Below are positions 1-20,997 of a stretch of DNA of 64,000 nucleotides, piece after piece. The notes under the pieces are model-generated. The model was given only the letters and a program-made list of their open reading frames with translations. It searched no databases and was not told where the DNA came from. The DNA lies in NCBI RefSeq assembly GCF_054482525.1, contig NZ_CM137006.1. One strand, given 5' to 3'. The translations under genes and the position numbers were made by a program. The stretch's first letter is position 1; every line of letters starts with the position of its first letter.

Positions 1-306
1 TTTGTTCCCATGACATCGTATAGCGTTACGACCCTGGAACAATTGCGCCAACAACTTGAGGATGCCAGAGTAAATGGCTATGCATTTGATAACAGGGAAA
101 TCAATGAGGAGACGGTATGTTATGCTGTTGCCTTAAAACAGCGAAATAAAACGCTTGCCGCCATCAGCATTTCAATACCCGTATTTCGTGCGACAAAAGA
201 AAAAATTGCCGATGTCACGCGTATCCTGCTGAATGCACGTTCGCGTATTGAACAGGAACTCAACACCTTACAGGATATCAATATCGGTATTGATTCCCAC
301 CATTAA
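1..306 (+). CDS. IclR-family transcriptional regulator, C-terminal effector-domain fragment; the 5-prime end lies upstream of the window
   Basis: ORF 10..306 with the reading frame open back to position 1; the translation resembles an IclR-type C-terminal ligand-binding domain and no HTH is present, so the gene must start outside the window. Confidence 0.5.
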   Translation, partial: FVPMTSYSVTTLEQLRQQLEDARVNGYAFDNREINEETVCYAVALKQRNKTLAAISISIPVFRATKEKIADVTRILLNARSRIEQELNTLQDINIGIDSHH

Positions 307-382
307 GGGTATTTTCCATTCGAAGCCCGATACGTAAAAATTATCGGGCTAACAAAATATCCATTGAATGGATAGCGATGAA

Positions 383-1114
383 CTAGCTGCGCTGGCGCAC
401 CGCTTCAAATAAGCAAATTCCGGTCGCAACCGAAACGTTCAGGGAAGAAACACTTCCTGCCATTGGGATGCTGATCAACTCATCGCAATGTTCACGGGTC
501 AGGCGACGCATACCTTCACCTTCCGCGCCCATCACCAGCGCCAGGCGTCCGGTCATTTTGCTCTGATAGAGTGTATGATCCGCCTCGCCTGCCGTACCGA
601 CGATCCAGATATTCTCTTCCTGCAACATACGCATGGTGCGCGCCAGATTAGTCACCCGAATCAGCGGAACGCTTTCTGCCGCGCCGCAGGCTACTTTTTT
701 CGCCGTGGCGTTGAGCTGTGCGGAGCGATCTTTCGGCACAATCACCGCATGAACTCCTGCGGCGTCCGCGCTACGCAGGCACGCGCCGAGGTTGTGCGGA
801 TCGGTTACACCGTCGAGGATCAGCAGGAACGGTTGATCGAGCGAAGCGATCAGATCCGGCAGATCGTTTTCCTGATACTGACGTCCTGGCTTCACGCGGG
901 CAATAATGCCCTGATGCACGGCACCTTCGCTTTTCTCGTCGAGATACTGACGGTTCGCCAACTGGATAACCACGCCCTGGGACTCAAGGGCGTGAATCAG
1001 CGGCAACAGACGTTTATCTTCACGGCCTTTTAAAATAAAGACTTCCTGAAAACGTTCAGGGGCGCGCTCCAGCAGGGCCTGCACTGCGTGGATGCCGTAA
1101 ATCATTTCGCTCAT
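383..1114 (-). CDS. rlmB: 23S rRNA (guanosine-2-prime-O)-methyltransferase RlmB
   Basis: 243-aa ORF, SpoU/TrmH-type methyltransferase sequence recognised as E. coli RlmB; sits directly downstream of rnr as in K-12. Confidence 0.93.
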
Positions 1115-1136
1115 TAATATACTCGTTGTTTACGTT

Positions 1137-1248
1137 TTGCCTGATGCACTACGTTTATCCGGCCTACATGCTCCCTGCAATATATTGAATTTGCGTGATT
1201 ATGTAGGCCGGATAAGGCGTTCACGCCGCATCCGGCATGAACAAAGCG
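1137..1248. repeat. REP/BIME element (two inverted REP units)
   Basis: Inverted copies of the REP motif (tgtaggccggataaggcgttcacgccgcatccggca and its partner ccggcctaca) in the rlmB-rnr intergenic region. Confidence 0.8.
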
Positions 1249-1294
1249 CATTTTGTCAGCAATCTAACCCTCTTCTGTTTGAAGAGGGTAATGA

Positions 1295-3736
1295 TCACTC
1301 TGCCACTTTTTTCTTCGCCGCACGCTTCGCTTTGGTCGCTGCGGCTATTTTCTGCGTTTTCGCCGATGGCTTTTTCGCTTTTCTCGCGTCTTTCTTCGCC
1401 GCTTTCGGCTTCGGTTTTTTCTCGCCGCGGAAGGCGCTGTCTGGCTCAAAGTTTACCTTTTTACCGACCTGACGACGCTTGCCGCCTTTTTTACCTGCAT
1501 CGCCTTTTTTCGCTTTCTCGCGCGCCGTTTTACCGACGTTGCGCGGTGCGCGTTCGCTGGAGATCAGGCTAAAGTCGATTTTACGCTCGTCCATATTAAC
1601 CGCTTCGACGCGAACTTCCACGCGATCGCCCAGGCGATAAGTCTGGCCGCTGGATTCACCCATCAGGCGTTGCCCTACCTGGTCAAAGCGATAGTAGTCA
1701 TTGTCCAGCGAAGAGACATGGACCAGACCATCAATGAACAAGTCGTCCAGACGGACGAAGAAGCCAAAGCCAGTGACGCTGGAAATTACGCCTTTAAAGA
1801 CGTTACCTACCTGGTCGAGCATGAAGTCACACTTCAGCCAGTCAGCTACATCGCGTGTTGCTTCGTCGGCACGACGTTCCGCCATCGAACAGTGCTGACC
1901 CAGTTGCAGCATCTCTTCCATCGAATAATGGTAACCGCCGGTTTCAGTAGTGTTGCCCTGATGCCCCTGCTCTTTCGCCAGCAGATACTTAATGGCGCGG
2001 TGCAGCGTCAGGTCAGGATAACGACGAATCGGCGAAGTAAAGTGCGCATAGGACTGCAATGCCAGACCGAAGTGACCACGGTTTTCTGGATCGTAAATCG
2101 CCTGTTTCATCGAGCGCAGCAGCATGGTTTGCAGCATTTCTGCGTCAGGACGATCGGCAACCGACTCTAGCAACTCCGCGTAATCACGCGGTTCCGGCTT
2201 GTTACCGCCCGGCAGTTCCAGCCCCAGCTCCGCCAGCACTGAACGGAAAGAGGTAATCGCTTCGGTGCTCGGCTTATCGTGAATACGGAACAGTGCTGGT
2301 TCTTTGGCTTTCTCAACGAAACGCGCCGCCGAGATATTCGCCAGAATCATGCACTCTTCAATTAACTTGTGTGCGTCGTTACGCTGAGTCTGTTCGATAC
2401 GCTCAATACGGCGTTCAGCGTTGAAAATGAACTTCGCTTCTTCGCTCTCAAATGAGATCCCGCCACGTTCTTCACGGGCTTTATCCAGCACTTTATAGAG
2501 GTTATGCAACTCTTCGAGATGCTTAACCAGCGGGGCGTACTGCTCGCGCAGATCCTGATCGCCCTGCAGAATATGCCAGACTTTGGTGTAGGTCAGACGT
2601 GCGTGAGAGCTCATTACCGCTTCATAGAATTTGTAGCCAGTCAGGCGGCCTTTCGACGAAACCGTCATCTCGCACACCATACACAGGCGGTCTACCTGCG
2701 GGTTGAGCGAACACAGACCGTTAGAGAGCACTTCCGGCAGCATCGGGATAACCTGCGAAGGGAAGTACACCGACGTACCACGGTTACGCGCTTCTCTGTC
2801 CAGCGGTGTTGGCGGACGCACATAGTAGCTGACGTCGGCAATCGCGACCCATAAACGCCAGCCGCCGCCGCGTTTTTTCTCGCAGTAAACTGCATCGTCA
2901 AAGTCACGGGCGTCTTCGCCATCAATGGTGACCAGCGGTAAATCGCGCAGATCGACACGGCCCTCTTTTGCTTCTTCCGGCACTTCTTCTTTCAGCCCGG
3001 CAACCTGTTGCTCAACAGCCTGCGGCCAGATGTACGGAATTTCATGGGTGCGCAGAGCGATATCGACCGCCATGCCAGTACCCATATTGTCGCCAAGTAC
3101 TTCGACGATTTTACCCACCGCTTTGGTACGGCGAGTCGGGCGTTGGGTCAGTTCAACCACCACCACAAAGCCCATCCGCGCGCCCATGATCTGATCGGGC
3201 GGGATTAAGATATCGAAGCTCAAACGACTGTCGTCAGGAACCACAAAGCCGACGCCCGCTTCGGTAAAGTAGCGACCAACAATCTGGCTGGTTTTTGGCA
3301 CCAGTACGCGGACAATACGCGCTTCACGACGACCTTTACGGTCAGCACCCAGCGGCTGCGCCAGCACCTGATCGCCATGAATGCAGGTTTTCATCTGCTC
3401 GCTGGAGAGATACAAATCATCTTTACGCCCTTCAACCCGCAGAAAGCCGTAGCCATCACGGTGGCCAATAACGGTACCTTTCACCAGGTCGAGGCGTTCC
3501 GGCAGCGCATAGCACTGACGACGAGTGAAGACCAGTTGACCATCGCGCTCCATCGCGCGCAGGCGGCGACGCAGGCCTTCAAGCTGCTCTTCGCCTTCAA
3601 TGTGCAGTTCTACCGCCAGCTCATCACGGCTGGCCGGTTTTTCACGTTTGGTTAAATGTTCGAGGATAAATTCCCGACTAGGGATGGGATTCGCGTATTT
3701 TTCAGCTTCGCGTTCCTGGAAAGGATCTTGTGACAT
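1295..3736 (-). CDS. rnr: Ribonuclease R (3-prime to 5-prime exoribonuclease) with lysine-rich C-terminal tail
   Basis: 827-aa ORF; conserved start [23 protein letters not shown] at the 15th codon gives 813 aa; RNB and S1 domain sequence recognised. Confidence 0.93.
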
Positions 3737-3774
3737 CTCGGTTCCTCCGTTGTCATCTCTGATGAAGATTTTCG

Positions 3775-4200
3775 TCACTCCACCAGCAATAATTTATAAA
3801 GCGGTTGATTCTCTTCAACCAAATCGGCAAGCGTGTAGTTATCCAGTTCCGTAAGAAAACTTTGCACGGCCTTAGAAAGCGCCTGTTTCAACCGACAGGC
3901 AGGTGTAATGTGGCAAAACTCACTGCTGCAATTCACCAGCGATAAGGGCTCCAGCTCGCGCACCACATCACCAATACGTATCGCACTCGCCGGTTTACCC
4001 AGACGAATGCCGCCATTTTTTCCACGAACAGCAGTCACGTAGCCGGCACGACTAAGTTGATTGATTATTTTGACCATATGATTACGGGAGACGCCGTAGA
4101 CGTCAGTCACTTCAGAAATACTGGTCATCCGCCCTTCTGGCAATGACGCCATGTAGATCAGCGCACGTAATCCGTAATCAGTGAAACTCGTTAACTGCAC
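3775..4200 (-). CDS. nsrR: Nitric-oxide-sensitive Rrf2-family repressor NsrR
   Basis: 141-aa ORF with an Rrf2 winged-helix N-terminus and a cysteine cluster; position between purA and rnr. Confidence 0.92.
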
Positions 4201-14344: not shown

Positions 14345-16323
<1,979 letters not shown>

Positions 16324-16325
<2 letters not shown>

Positions 16326-17463
16326 GTCAGAGCCCCTCGATCTCAATCAGTTAGCGCAAAAAATTAAACAGTGGGGGCTGGAACTGGGCTTTCAGCAGGT
16401 AGGTATTACCGATACCGATCTCAGCGAGTCCGAGCCCAAACTGCAAGCATGGCTGGACAAACAATACCACGGCGAAATGGACTGGATGGCGCGTCACGGT
16501 ATGCTGCGCGCTCGCCCCCATGAATTATTGCCCGGTACGCTGCGCGTGATCAGCGTGCGGATGAATTACCTTCCTGCTAACGCCGCATTTGCCAGCACGC
16601 TGAAAAACCCTAAGCTCGGCTATGTGAGCCGTTATGCGCTGGGCCGTGACTATCACAAACTTCTGCGCAACCGACTCAAAAAGCTGGGCGAGATGATTCA
16701 GCAACATTGTGTTTCGCTGAATTTTAGACCGTTTGTCGATTCTGCGCCTATTCTCGAGCGCCCGTTAGCTGAAAAAGCAGGACTCGGCTGGACAGGTAAG
16801 CACTCACTTATCCTCAATCGCGAGGCTGGTTCGTTCTTCTTTTTAGGCGAATTGCTGGTCGATATTCCTCTGCCCGTGGATCAACCGGTCGAGGAAGGAT
16901 GCGGTAAATGCGTGGCCTGTATGACGATTTGCCCGACCGGAGCCATCGTCGAACCATATACCGTCGATGCTCGCCGCTGTATCTCTTATCTCACCATCGA
17001 ACTGGAGGGGGCGATCCCGGAAGAGTTGCGACCGTTAATGGGAAACCGTATTTACGGTTGCGATGACTGCCAGCTTATCTGCCCGTGGAATCGCTATTCG
17101 CAACTCACTACAGAAGACGATTTCAGCCCGCGTAAGCCGCTACACGCACCGGAACTCATTGAGTTATTCGCCTGGAGTGAAGAGAAGTTTTTAAAAGTCA
17201 CGGAAGGATCGGCGATTCGCCGTATAGGTCATCTGCGTTGGCTGCGTAATATCGCCGTAGCATTAGGCAATGCGCCCTGGGATGAAACGATTTTGACAGC
17301 GCTGGAAAGTCGTAAAGGTGAGCACCCACTTCTTGATGAGCACATAGCGTGGGCGATTGCGCAGCAAATCGAGAGGCGAAATGCGTGCGTGGTCGAAGTG
17401 CAATTGCCGAAAAAACAGCGTCTGGTTAGGGTCATTGAAAAAGGGTTACCGCGTGACGCCTGA
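16324..17463 (+). CDS. queG: Epoxyqueuosine reductase QueG
   Basis: ORF 16216..17463; conserved start MSEPLDLNQLAQKIKQWG at codon 37 (379 aa); 4Fe-4S cysteine motifs CGKCVACMTICP and CDDCQLICP. Confidence 0.9.
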
Positions 17464-17732
17464 TTCATCCACAGCTTGTGAATAAAAATAAAAACACATT
17501 GCAATTCAAGACGAATAAAATCGTCAAGTGATCGACTCGACAAAACAGAATCTTAATTTTCAACCTATATATCAGTAAGTTAAAAAAATACTATTCACCG
17601 TGCGAAGTTTCTTTGAAATTAAGATTACGGACTGAGGCTGTGGATAACTCTGTTTACAAGAGTTTGTCAGAGACAACAAAAACCAGCAATAACGCATCGC
17701 GTCGCTGTGGATATTTTATTGAGAGAAGAATT

Positions 17733-17808
<76 letters not shown>

Positions 17809-17843
17809 TTGGGTGGTCTGTGCTTTACAGCACTTTCAAATTT

Positions 17844-17919
<76 letters not shown>

Positions 17920-17954
17920 TTGGGTGGTCTGTGCTTTATAGCACTTTCAAATTT

Positions 17955-18030
<76 letters not shown>

Positions 18031-18240
18031 GTACTACTTAATTTTGCTTTCGTAATTTTCGCATTTCTGCGTCGTTACGGGAGGCGCATTATACGAGAAA
18101 TCTTTCCCTCTGCAACCCCCCTAAAAAATTTTTTTTGAGTTTTTATCTCAAATGCTGAAATTATCAGCAAGACGTTCAATTTAGCGTCAAAATCACGCCG
18201 CCGCAAGTGGATTCCGGCGCTTACGTGACCAGGAAAAATT

Positions 18241-18786
18241 TTACAGCTTGATAAAATGCTCGCGGTAGTAAGCCAGTTCTGCCACCGACTCACGGATATC
18301 ATCCATCGCCTGATGCGTCCCCTGCTTGGTAAAACCATCAAGAATTTCCGGCTTCCAGCGGCGCGCCAGCTCTTTCAGCGTGCTGACATCAAGATAACGG
18401 TAGTGGAAGTACGCTTCCAGCTCCGGCATGTATTTAAACAGGAAGCGACGATCCTGACCGATGCTGTTACCGCAAATCGGCGATTTTCCCGCAGGCACCC
18501 ACTGTTTTAAGAATTCGAGCGTTGCCAGTTCAGCTTCCCGATCGCCCATCGTGCTCGCTTTCACGCGCTCCACCAGCCCGCTGGCGGTATGGGTACGGAC
18601 ATTCCAATCATCCATCAGCGCCAGCTGTTCATCAGACTGGTGTACTGCAATGGTCGGCCCTTCTTCCAGAATATTCAGGTTGGCATCGGTCACCAGCGTG
18701 GCAATCTCAATAATGCGATCGCGCTCGGGATCCAGACCGGTCATCTCAAGATCGATCCAAATCAGGTTGTTTTCATTGGCACTCAT
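18241..18786 (-). CDS. orn: Oligoribonuclease
   Basis: ORF 18241..18930; conserved start [18 protein letters not shown] at codon 49 gives 181 aa; DEDDh exonuclease motifs. Confidence 0.93.
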
Positions 18787-18880
18787 GCTATTTTCCACCC
18801 ATTCACAGTGACTATATTGATCCACAATTGCGTGTATCATAGATGTTTTGCCCATCAGGGGCGACCAGGAGTCTGTACGA

Positions 18881-19933
18881 TTGAGTAAAAATAAACTCTC
18901 CAAAGGCCAGCAGCGCCGCGTGAACGCCAATCACCAGCGTCGTCTTAAAACGTCTAAGGAGAAGCCCGACTACGACGACAATCTGTTTGGCGAGCCTGAT
19001 GAAGGTATCGTCATCAGCCGCTTTGGTATGCACGCTGATGTGGAATCCGCCGATGGCGACGTTCACCGCTGCAATATTCGCCGTACCATCCGTTCGCTGG
19101 TGACCGGCGACCGCGTAGTCTGGCGTCCGGGTAAACCGGCGGCGGAAGGCGTAAATGTCAAAGGGATCGTGGAAGCGGTGCATGAGCGCACTTCAGTGTT
19201 AACGCGCCCGGACTTCTACGACGGCGTGAAACCTATTGCCGCCAACATCGACCAGATTGTCATTGTCTCCGCCATTTTGCCGGAGCTGTCGCTCAATATT
19301 ATCGACCGTTACCTGGTGGCCTGCGAAACCTTGCAGATTGAGCCGATTATTGTGCTCAACAAGATAGACCTGCTGGACGACGAAGGTATGGAGTTCGTCA
19401 ACGAGCAGATGGATATCTACCGCAATATCGGTTATCGCGTATTGATGGTTTCCAGTCATACTCAGGATGGGCTGAAACCGCTGGAAGAGGCGTTGACCGG
19501 GCGCATCAGCATTTTTGCCGGGCAGTCCGGCGTCGGGAAATCCAGCCTGCTGAACGCGCTGCTGGGGCTGCAAAAAGAGATCCTGACCAACGATGTTTCT
19601 GACAACTCGGGGCTTGGTCAGCACACCACGACCGCCGCTCGGCTGTATCACTTCCCGCACGGCGGTGATGTGATTGACTCCCCTGGTGTGCGTGAGTTCG
19701 GCCTCTGGCACCTGGAGCCGGAACAAATCACTCAGGGCTTTGTCGAATTCCATGACTACTTAGGTCTGTGTAAATATCGCGATTGCAAACACGATACCGA
19801 TCCGGGCTGCGCTATCCGGGAAGCGGTTGAGGAAGGAAAAATCGCGGAAACCCGTTTCGAAAACTATCACCGTATTCTGGAAAGCATGGCGCAGGTAAAA
19901 ACGCGTAAAAACTTTTCTGATACGGATGACTGA
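18881..19933 (+). CDS. rsgA: Small-subunit ribosome biogenesis GTPase RsgA
   Basis: ORF 18848..19933; product starts (TTG start) at [14 protein letters not shown] for 350 aa; G-motif [11 protein letters not shown] and zinc-finger cysteines. Confidence 0.9.
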
Positions 19934-20028
19934 CAATTAAGCTAACCGTCGTTAGAATCGTCCCTTTTTTTCAGGATCCGGCATGTAGGCCGGATCAGGA
20001 ACGACAAAACAATGGCCTGGAGGCTACC

Positions 20029-20997
20029 TTGTTAAATTCATTTAAACTTTCGCTACAGTACATTCTGCCGAAACTATGGCTTACTCGCCTGGCGGGTTGG
20101 GGCGCAAGCAAGCGGGCAGGATGGCTGACAAAACTGGTTATCGATCTGTTCGTTAAATACTACAAGGTCGACATGAAAGAGGCGCAAAAGCCGGATACCG
20201 CCAGCTACCGCACCTTTAACGAATTCTTTGTCCGTCCGCTGCGTGACGAAGTACGCCCAATCGATACCGATCCGAATGTACTGGTTATGCCTGCCGATGG
20301 CGTTATCAGCCAGTTGGGTAAAATCGAAGAAGATAAAATCCTGCAAGCCAAAGGCCACAACTACAGCCTCGAAGCCCTACTGGCAGGCAACTATCTGATG
20401 GCGGATCTCTTCCGTAACGGTACGTTTGTGACCACTTACCTCTCCCCACGTGACTACCACCGCGTACACATGCCGTGCAACGGTATTCTGCGTGAAATGA
20501 TCTACGTGCCGGGCGATCTCTTTTCCGTTAACCATCTCACCGCTCAGAACGTGCCGAATCTGTTTGCCCGTAATGAACGCGTGATCTGCCTGTTCGATAC
20601 CGAATTTGGCCCAATGGCGCAGATTCTGGTCGGGGCGACGATTGTAGGCAGCATTGAGACGGTCTGGGCGGGCACCATTACGCCGCCGCGCGAAGGTATC
20701 ATCAAGCGCTGGACCTGGCCTGCCGGGGAAAACGACGGTTCTGTGGCACTGCTGAAAGGCCAGGAAATGGGTCGCTTTAAACTCGGTTCCACCGTTATCA
20801 ACCTATTTGCACCGGGTAAAGTGAATCTGGTTGAGCAACTGGAAAGCCTGTCTGTCACGAAAATTGGCCAGCCGCTGGCAGTATCTACCGAAACCTTTGT
20901 TACGCCAGACGCTGAACCCGCCCCGCTTCCTGCTGAAGAGATCGAAGCAGAACACGACGCCAGCCCATTGGTTGACGACAAAAAAGACCAGGTCTAA
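20029..20997 (+). CDS. psd: Phosphatidylserine decarboxylase proenzyme
   Basis: 322-aa ORF; LGST self-cleavage motif ([11 protein letters not shown]) present. Confidence 0.95.

What the first reader, a model, noticed from the sequence alone, without database searches (positions are those of the whole stretch)
1..382. IclR-type regulator fragment where K-12 has yjfI
In K-12, as I recall the map, rlmB is followed by yjfI. Here the neighbouring gene, convergent with rlmB, ends in an IclR-like effector domain. This suggests a strain-specific insertion or replacement at the left edge of the window, though it is truncated by the window so little can be said.
Basis: partly seen in the sequence, partly recalled or inferred. 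Interest (0 to 1): 0.3.

Follow-up and report, generated by a model that had tools for sequence, protein, structure and literature searches.

The report
Regulator of an accessory sugar-acid island
The left edge of the window is the tail of an IclR-type regulator that belongs to a 5.1-kb, four-gene sugar-acid breakdown cassette inserted between rlmB and yjfI in about one in ten E. coli genomes; it is real but ordinary, and its substrate is unknown.

Summary

- **The fragment.** Window 1-306 (+) encodes the last 101 residues of a 259-aa IclR-family regulator. It is convergent with rlmB (383-1114, -).
- **K-12.** rlmB is followed directly by yjfI after 126 bp.
- **The insertion.** The window matches 519 of 5426 complete E. 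coli genomes that carry about 5.14 kb at this site. Its genes are the IclR regulator and, divergently, a DHDPS-family aldolase, an MFS acid-sugar transporter and a UxaA/GarD-family dehydratase. yjfI is displaced, not replaced.
- **Origin.** The island has low GC (about 0.44), no mobility genes, and less divergence between lineages than its flanks. The same cassette sits at other chromosomal sites in Providencia, Yersinia and Klebsiella.
- **Predicted operator.** A palindrome, GTTYRTATATAYRAAC, lies just upstream of the aldolase gene in every cassette fetched (exact in most, near-match in Yersinia and L008). It also occurs in a Pectobacterium variant with a different dehydratase and transporter. 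It resembles the XynR box.
- **Most likely function.** The protein is a local repressor of a non-phosphorylative aldonate pathway, released by the aldonate or its 2-keto-3-deoxy product. The substrate was not identified.

It is a new member of a known kind, of low interest.

The parts
1..306 (+). 3' part of the IclR-family regulator gene: codons 159-259 plus the TAA stop at 304-306. It encodes the C-terminal half of the effector-binding (IclR_C) domain.
   Evidence: Open frame. Pfam IclR_C at E 1.6e-14. Identical to the annotated 259-aa WP_000400401.1 in L001 at 19527-20306.
307..382 (.). Non-coding right end of the island, between the convergent regulator gene and rlmB. It holds two hairpins: AGCCCGATA-N9-TATCGGGCT at 324-350 and TATCCAT-TGA-ATGGATA at 358-374. 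On the rlmB strand the second hairpin is followed by UUUUGUU.
   Evidence: Sequence. The + strand fold is -25.3 kcal/mol, z -3.65. No Rfam match in 1-382. A terminator role is inferred; the consensus scan did not call either hairpin.
383..385 (-). rlmB stop codon and right junction of the insertion. The stop is TAG here and TAA in K-12, and homology with K-12 resumes from position 384.
   Evidence: Comparison of window/L001 with MG1655 L002.
383..1114 (-). rlmB, the core gene flanking the island. It is not part of the island.
   Evidence: 243-aa ORF. RefSeq annotation under the match.

Best explanation
The fragment is the C-terminal effector domain of an intact IclR-family transcription factor. 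That factor is the dedicated regulator of a horizontally acquired four-gene catabolic cassette, about 5.14 kb, inserted between rlmB and yjfI.

Proposed mechanism (inferred):
1. The MFS anion:cation symporter imports an aldonic acid (acid sugar).
2. The UxaA/GarD-family dehydratase converts it to a 2-keto-3-deoxy acid.
3. The YagE-like DHDPS-family aldolase splits that into pyruvate and an aldehyde, a non-phosphorylative route of the Dahms / Campylobacter-fucose type.
4. The regulator binds a tandem pair of GTTYRTATATAYRAAC palindromes that lie between the operon's -10 element and the aldolase start codon, and so represses the operon.
5. Repression is lifted when the effector domain binds the aldonate or, more likely, its 2-keto-3-deoxy product, as shown for XynR and YjhI.

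Shown here: the domain identity, the gene content, the insertion site, the distribution, and the conserved palindrome.
Inferred: repression, the effector, and the pathway chemistry.
Unknown: the substrate. The altronate stereo-series (D-altronate, L-fuconate, D-arabinonate, L-galactonate) is the best guess.
For: - Domains: IclR_C in the window; HTH_IclR plus IclR_C in the full protein.
- Neighbours: DHDPS, MFS_1 (D-galactonate-transporter subfamily, 257 bits) and SAF+GD_AH dehydratase.
- Aldolase: the closest solved structure is E. coli YagE at E 1.7e-47, with 32% identity to YagE and YjhH.
- Cassette as a unit: it is conserved at unrelated chromosomal sites in Providencia, Yersinia, Klebsiella and an unnamed enterobacterial assembly (L008); in a further assembly (L003) only the regulator-aldolase pair is visible before the contig ends.
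- Pectobacterium variant: the regulator (55% identity) and aldolase (68%) are kept, while the dehydratase is IlvD/EDD-type and the transporter GntP-type. This ties the regulator to the aldolase step and its keto-deoxy substrate.
- Palindrome: it occurs exactly once, directly upstream of the aldolase gene, in L001, L003, L004/5, L009 and L010, with near matches in L006 and L008. A second copy follows 3 nt later in E. coli. At up to 2 mismatches L001 has 2 sites against 0.12 expected.
- Promoter: a conserved TTGACT-16-TATACT lies upstream of the palindromes.
- Operator resemblance: the XynR box TGTTCT-N7-AGAACA sits in the same position before yagE (PMC11778176; sequence seen).
- Precedents: XynR and YjhI respond to 2-keto-3-deoxy-xylonate (PMC13279387). 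Campylobacter FucR, 34-36% identical, is an IclR repressor of a dapA-uxaA-MFS operon (PMC12566272).
- Acquisition: island GC is about 0.44 against about 0.54 in rlmB-rnr. Divergence between island-bearing lineages is 0.45-0.66% in the island against 1.1-2.4% in the flanks.
Against: - No experiment or paper on this protein was found.
- None of the four proteins reaches any NCBIfam equivalog cut-off, so the substrate and effector cannot be transferred by homology.
- The window holds only 101 of 259 codons. It holds no DNA-binding domain, no operator, and none of the other three genes.
- That this particular genome carries the whole island is inferred from the 512 genomes with a nearly full-length island, out of 519 that have any of it.
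- IclR regulators can be activators (YjhI) or pleiotropic (XyrR).
- The dehydratase clade includes enzymes that genomic context marks as ordinary altronate dehydratases. E. coli already has that activity, so the benefit of the cassette is unclear.
Confidence: 0.7

Rival explanations
1. The regulator is the local regulator of the cassette but acts as an activator, or as a dual regulator like YjhI for yjhIHG, rather than as a repressor.
For: YjhI, an IclR-family protein next to a DHDPS-type aldolase, is reported as an activator (PMC13279387). Several IclR proteins activate. The -10 of the operon promoter (TATACT) is imperfect.
Against: The palindromes lie downstream of the predicted -10, between it and the start codon, which is a roadblock position. 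The closer relatives with data, FucR at 34-36% and XynR/XyrR with a similar box, are repressors (PMC12566272, PMC11778176). Identity to YjhI is only 24%.
Confidence: 0.15
2. The island is ancestral to E. coli and was deleted in most lineages, so K-12 shows a loss rather than the window strain a gain.
For: There are no integrase, tRNA, transposase or flanking direct repeats. Deletions do occur here: an IS1-mediated deletion in TUM9757 left 150 nt of the regulator gene.
Against: Island GC is about 0.44 against about 0.54 in the rlmB-rnr flank and about 0.47 on the yjf side. Island divergence between lineages is 2-5 times lower than in the flanks. The empty site is uniform in 4864 genomes. The K-12 rlmB terminator hairpin is intact on the far, yjfI side of the island, as expected if DNA was inserted between the stop codon and the terminator. 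The closest homologues are in Leminorella, Morganella and Providencia at other loci. Outgroup Escherichia species were not examined.
Confidence: 0.1
3. The regulator mainly controls targets elsewhere in the genome, or is pleiotropic like Serratia XyrR, and its adjacency to the cassette is secondary.
For: XyrR affects motility, gas vesicles and antibiotics (PMC11778176).
Against: The regulator and aldolase genes travel together across genera together with the palindrome. No match to the palindrome at up to 2 mismatches occurs in the 64-kb window, and the only matches in 41 kb of L001 are at the cassette promoter. The rest of the genome was not scanned.
Confidence: 0.05

Closest known systems
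XynR (YagI) / yagEF(GH) and YjhI / yjhHG(F): D-xylonate clusters of E. coli K-12 cryptic prophages, and XyrR of Serratia sp. ATCC 39006
   Same: An IclR-family regulator sits next to a DHDPS-family 2-keto-3-deoxy-acid aldolase, an acid-sugar dehydratase and a transporter. A palindromic operator with TGTT...AACA ends lies directly upstream of the aldolase gene (PMC11778176). [quoted passage not shown]
   Different: The regulator is only 26.5% identical to XynR and 24% to YjhI, and the aldolase 32% to YagE/YjhH. The dehydratase is UxaA/GarD-type rather than IlvD/EDD, and the transporter is an ACS-type MFS rather than GPH or GntP. The operator spacing is one base shorter. The cassette is not in a prophage.
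Campylobacter jejuni/coli L-fucose / D-arabinose locus (FucR Cj0480c, DapA-like Cj0481, UxaA Cj0482/3, MFS Cj0484)
   Same: It has the same four protein families in one regulon. FucR is an IclR-type repressor that binds the dapA promoter (PMC12566272). The predicted route runs from L-fuconate to a keto-deoxy acid to pyruvate plus an aldehyde (PMC6946681). The regulator is 34-36% identical and the MFS 38.6%.
   Different: The dehydratase is only 33% identical and the aldolase 23-26%. The E. coli cassette lacks the sugar dehydrogenase FucX, the lactonase, FucP, the mutarotase and the aldehyde dehydrogenase. It would therefore have to start from the acid, not the sugar.
UxaA (D-altronate dehydratase) / GarD (galactarate dehydratase) superfamily
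   Same: The dehydratase has the SAF, GD_AH_second and GD_AH_C architecture. It is 57% identical to Massilia and Silvimonas enzymes encoded between uxaC and a uxaB-like gene, so those are altronate dehydratases by context.
   Different: It is 33% identical to E. coli UxaA. It scores 221 bits against a 731-bit cut-off for GarD. It is about 27% identical to the Herbaspirillum D-arabinonate dehydratase, judged from an OCR-degraded sequence. No uxaC or uxaB partner is present; an aldolase is there instead.
KdgR (IclR-family repressor of the KDG regulon)
   Same: It is an IclR-family sensor of a 2-keto-3-deoxy sugar acid, and it is the second-best NCBIfam hit at 121.8 bits.
   Different: The score is far below the 275-bit equivalog cut-off. 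The operator and the regulon are different.

Membership tests
IclR family of transcriptional regulators | C-terminal IclR effector-binding domain (PF01614) | tested here: met
   Window fragment: E 1.6e-14, 54.3 bits against a cut-off of 24. Full protein: 115.8 bits. PDB IclR-family hits reach 1e-17.
IclR family of transcriptional regulators | N-terminal winged helix-turn-helix (PF09339) in a protein of about 250-280 aa | tested here: met
   HTH_IclR scores 44.5 bits at residues 8-55 of the 259-aa protein in L001. This part lies outside the window and is inferred for the window's genome from 100% identical genomes.
XynR / YjhI (xylonate-responsive IclR regulators) | Sequence equivalence to XynR or YjhI | tested here: not met
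   26.5% identity to XynR and 24.5% to YjhI. NCBIfam PRK09834 models score 44-46 bits against cut-offs of 251-269.
XynR / YjhI (xylonate-responsive IclR regulators) | Control of a DHDPS-type aldolase plus an IlvD/EDD D-xylonate dehydratase | tested here: not met
   An aldolase neighbour is present, but the dehydratase is UxaA/GarD-type. Only the Pectobacterium variant has an IlvD/EDD enzyme, 36% identical to YagF.
KdgR | NCBIfam equivalog NF011671 at or above 275 bits | tested here: not met
   121.8 bits.
Campylobacter FucR regulon | IclR repressor adjacent to DapA-like, UxaA-family and MFS genes | tested here: met
   The same four families are present. The regulator is 34-36% identical.
Campylobacter FucR regulon | L-fucose dehydrogenase, lactonase, FucP permease and aldehyde dehydrogenase in the same operon; fucose-responsive | tested here: not met
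   None of these genes is in the 5.1-kb island. Responsiveness is not testable with these tools.
Galactarate dehydratase GarD (neighbouring gene) | TIGR03248 at or above 730.85 bits | tested here: not met
   221.2 bits. PDB 6u7l GarD matches at E 8.4e-51 over residues 177-507 only.
Classical mobile genomic island | Integrase or transposase, tRNA attachment site, flanking direct repeats | tested here: not met
   The island holds four metabolic and regulatory genes only. The junctions lie at the rlmB stop codon and just after the old rlmB terminator, without repeats. The only 'plasmid' hits are Mb-scale or 655-kb records, not real plasmids.
IclR-type repressor mechanism (operator occupancy relieved by ligand) | Specific binding to the palindromic operator and release by effector | not testable with these tools
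   Only the conserved palindrome and its position are shown.

The most novel reading that the evidence does not exclude
The cassette gives about 10% of E. coli strains a catabolic ability that K-12 lacks. They would grow on an aldonate released by other gut microbes, for example L-fuconate, which Campylobacter accumulates from mucin fucose, or D-arabinonate or L-galactonate. The route would be a non-phosphorylative dehydratase/aldolase pathway, with the IclR protein sensing a 2-keto-3-deoxy intermediate not yet known as an effector in E. coli. That would be a lineage-specific cross-feeding trait and a new biosensor specificity.
Probability: 0.3. Interest if true: 0.4.

Novelty: new member of a known kind. 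Interest (0 to 1): 0.2.

Why it matters
- It is a clean example of a small accessory metabolic module at a fixed chromosomal site, present in 9.6% of complete E. coli genomes.
- All four genes carry only generic family names, and no literature on them was found.
- If the substrate were identified, it would add a carbon source to the E. coli accessory metabolome and a ligand-responsive IclR regulator with a defined operator.
- The swap of dehydratase and transporter types around a constant regulator-aldolase-operator core (E. coli against Pectobacterium) is a neat case of modular pathway evolution.
- None of this changes any established concept.

Tried and rejected
1. Literature searches gave nothing on this locus. 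I searched rlmB/yjfI/IclR and the four RefSeq protein accessions.
2. I tried to place the dehydratase among the characterised UxaA/GarD subfamilies using the supplementary alignment of PMC6336799. The stored text is an OCR with obvious copying errors, so only the first row (C785_RS13685) was used. The resulting 27% identity is a rough figure.
It hit C. coli and C. taeniopygiae rather than C. jejuni. No systematic species survey of the regulator was therefore made, and outgroup Escherichia species were not checked.
4. Membership in KdgR, IclR, AllR, PcaR, BhcR, DapA, NanA, KdgD or GarD as equivalogs is rejected. All scores are far below the cut-offs.
5. A mobile-element origin through plasmids is rejected. 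The three 'plasmid' hits are records of 4.9 Mb and 655 kb.
6. An sRNA or other RNA family in 307-382 was not found. Rfam gave no hits there, only sub-threshold REP-related hits at 1150-1242.
7. The consensus terminator scan did not call the two hairpins at 324-374, so their terminator role remains an inference.
8. The operator motif was searched in the window with 0 matches at up to 2 mismatches. There is no evidence for extra targets nearby.

Full report
**What is in the window**

Bases 1-306 of the + strand are one open frame that runs from the window edge to a TAA at 304-306, giving 101 codons. The peptide matches the C-terminal part of Pfam IclR_C at E 1.6e-14, 54 bits against a cut-off of 24.

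rlmB occupies 383-1114 on the minus strand, followed by rnr, nsrR and purA. The two genes therefore converge across a 76-bp spacer. The spacer folds into two hairpins at 324-350 and 358-374 and has no Rfam match.

**What it belongs to**

Window 1-1200 is 100% identical to many complete E. coli genomes, for example strain 1190 (locus L001). In those genomes RefSeq annotates a full 259-aa IclR-family regulator beside rlmB. In L001 four genes lie between yjfI and rlmB:

| Gene product | L001 coordinates | Strand |
|---|---|---|
| UxaA-family hydrolase | 15325-16920 | - |
| MFS transporter | 16954-18255 | - |
| DHDPS-family protein | 18306-19199 | - |
| IclR regulator | 19527-20306 | + |

Comparing the junctions shows that about 5.14 kb replaces about 18 bp of the K-12 spacer.
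- The right junction is at the rlmB stop codon, which is TAG here and TAA in K-12.
- The left junction is immediately after the hairpin that serves as the rlmB terminator in K-12. In island genomes that hairpin now follows the UxaA-family gene.
- yjfI is displaced, not replaced.

**Distribution and origin**

- The island is found in 519 of 5426 complete genomes. It is single copy, at least 99% identical in 518, and nearly full length in 512.
- The K-12-type empty junction is found in 4864 genomes.
- There are occasional decay events. An IS1-mediated deletion in TUM9757 left 150 nt of the regulator gene and removed yjfI. Strain 0H24 has an IS2 insertion in the island.
- Island GC averages about 0.44, against about 0.54 for rlmB-rnr.
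- Between three island-bearing lineages the island differs at 0.45-0.66% of sites, while the flanks differ at 1.1-2.4%. This suggests one acquisition followed by spread through recombination in the flanks.
- No integrase, transposase, tRNA or direct repeats are present. The 'plasmid' hits are mislabelled chromosome-sized records.
- The nearest non-E. coli homologues come from several other Enterobacterales:
  - Dehydratase: Leminorella (88%), Morganella and Providencia (81-82%).
  - Regulator: Providencia (72%), Yersinia (59%), Klebsiella, Cedecea and Pectobacterium (54-58%).

**The cassette as a unit**

The same four genes occur together at unrelated chromosomal sites:
- Providencia rettgeri, between ycaO and focA-pflB.
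- Yersinia frederiksenii.
- Klebsiella oxytoca, between ugpB and livF.
- An unnamed assembly, L008. In another, L003, only the regulator and the aldolase gene are visible before the contig ends.

Commensalibacter has the three structural genes at 68-73% identity with a LysR gene nearby.

In a Pectobacterium the regulator (55% identity) and the aldolase (68%) are retained. There the dehydratase is an IlvD/EDD protein and the transporter a GntP permease. The regulator-aldolase pair is therefore the constant core.

**Predicted operator**

Alignment of the divergent intergenic regions and repeat and pattern searches reveal a palindrome, GTTYRTATATAYRAAC, directly upstream of the aldolase start codon.
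- It is exact and unique in L001, L003, L004/5, L009 and the Pectobacterium locus L010.
- It is nearly exact in the Yersinia locus L006 and in L008.
- E. coli has a second copy 3 nt further on. At up to 2 mismatches L001 has 2 sites against 0.12 expected.
- It is absent from the 64-kb window at up to 2 mismatches.

A conserved TTGACT-16-TATACT promoter lies just upstream of the palindromes, so they fall between the -10 element and the start codon. That is a repressor-type layout. The motif resembles the XynR box TGTTCT-N7-AGAACA, which sits in the same position before yagE (PMC11778176; sequence verified).

**Likely biochemistry**

- The DHDPS-family protein is closest to E. coli YagE, a 2-keto-3-deoxy-acid aldolase, at E 1.7e-47 and 32% identity.
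- The MFS belongs to the anion:cation symporter / D-galactonate-transporter group. It is 38.6% identical to the Cj0484-like transporter of C. coli.
- The dehydratase has the UxaA/GarD architecture. Its identities to reference enzymes are:

| Reference enzyme | Similarity |
|---|---|
| GarD | 221 bits against a 731-bit cut-off |
| E. coli UxaA | 33% |
| Campylobacter enzyme | 33% |
| Herbaspirillum D-arabinonate dehydratase (OCR-derived sequence) | about 27% |
| Massilia and Silvimonas enzymes encoded between uxaC and a uxaB-like gene | 57% |

The last group are altronate dehydratases by genomic context. Known activities of the superfamily share the altronate-type C2-C4 configuration: D-altronate, D-arabinonate, L-fuconate and L-galactonate (PMC6336799).

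My reading is that an imported aldonate of this series is dehydrated and then cleaved to pyruvate plus an aldehyde. The specific substrate remains open.

**Comparison with known systems**

The closest studied systems are the K-12 D-xylonate clusters and the Campylobacter L-fucose locus.
- In the xylonate clusters, the IclR proteins XynR and YjhI sense 2-keto-3-deoxy-xylonate (PMC13279387).
- In the Campylobacter locus, the IclR protein FucR represses a dapA-uxaA-MFS operon (PMC12566272, PMC6946681).

The protein here works like these but is not an orthologue of any of them. It is 26.5% identical to XynR, 24% to YjhI and 34-36% to FucR, and it is far below the equivalog cut-offs for KdgR, IclR, AllR, PcaR and BhcR.

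**Verdict**

The fragment is the tail of the regulator of a small, horizontally acquired, uncharacterised sugar-acid catabolic island that K-12 lacks. It is a new member of a well-known kind. Interest is low, at 0.2. The only open point of some value is the identity of the substrate and effector.

Noticed in passing
window 1137-1260 (rlmB-rnr spacer): REP/BIME-type palindromic repeats (GCCGGATAAGGCGTTCACGCCGCATCCGGC-like units). They give sub-threshold Rfam hits to the REP-derived naRNA4 (38 bits against 59.5) and ES036. This is an ordinary E. coli feature.
   Followed up: partly
L001 19398-19415, in the divergent promoter region, outside the window: A conserved block TATGACCAGTATCACG is kept in all four aligned intergenic regions. 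It resembles a CRP site (TGTGA-N6-TCACA), which hints at catabolite control of the cassette. Its position relative to either promoter was not resolved.
   Followed up: no
L010 9001-14489 (Pectobacterium sp. B1J-3): A variant cassette keeps the orthologous regulator (55%), aldolase (68%) and the identical operator. It uses an IlvD/EDD dehydratase (36% to YagF) and a GntP permease (61% to YjhF) in place of the UxaA-family and MFS genes.
   Followed up: partly
L012 3248-4150 (E. coli TUM9757) and hit H56 (strain 0H24): The island shows decay. IS1 deleted most of the island together with yjfI and part of yjfJ, leaving a 150-nt regulator remnant. IS2 is inserted inside the island in strain 0H24.
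   Followed up: partly
L026 6767-7885 (E. coli AR435): yjfI and yjfJ next to the island are annotated as pseudogenes with internal stops in this lineage. yjfC is a pseudogene in strain T28R, locus L027.
   Followed up: no
L030 6588-16815 and L031 6541-13464 (Massilia, Silvimonas): A 530-aa UxaA-family form only 33% identical to E. coli UxaA sits in uxaC-X-uxaB-MFS(-GH28-kdgK) clusters. It looks like an alternative altronate dehydratase clade in Betaproteobacteria.
   Followed up: partly
window 3736-3778 (rnr start): The mechanical ORF for rnr starts at a GTG giving 827 aa. RefSeq annotates a 2442-nt gene of 813 aa, starting 42 nt downstream.
   Followed up: no
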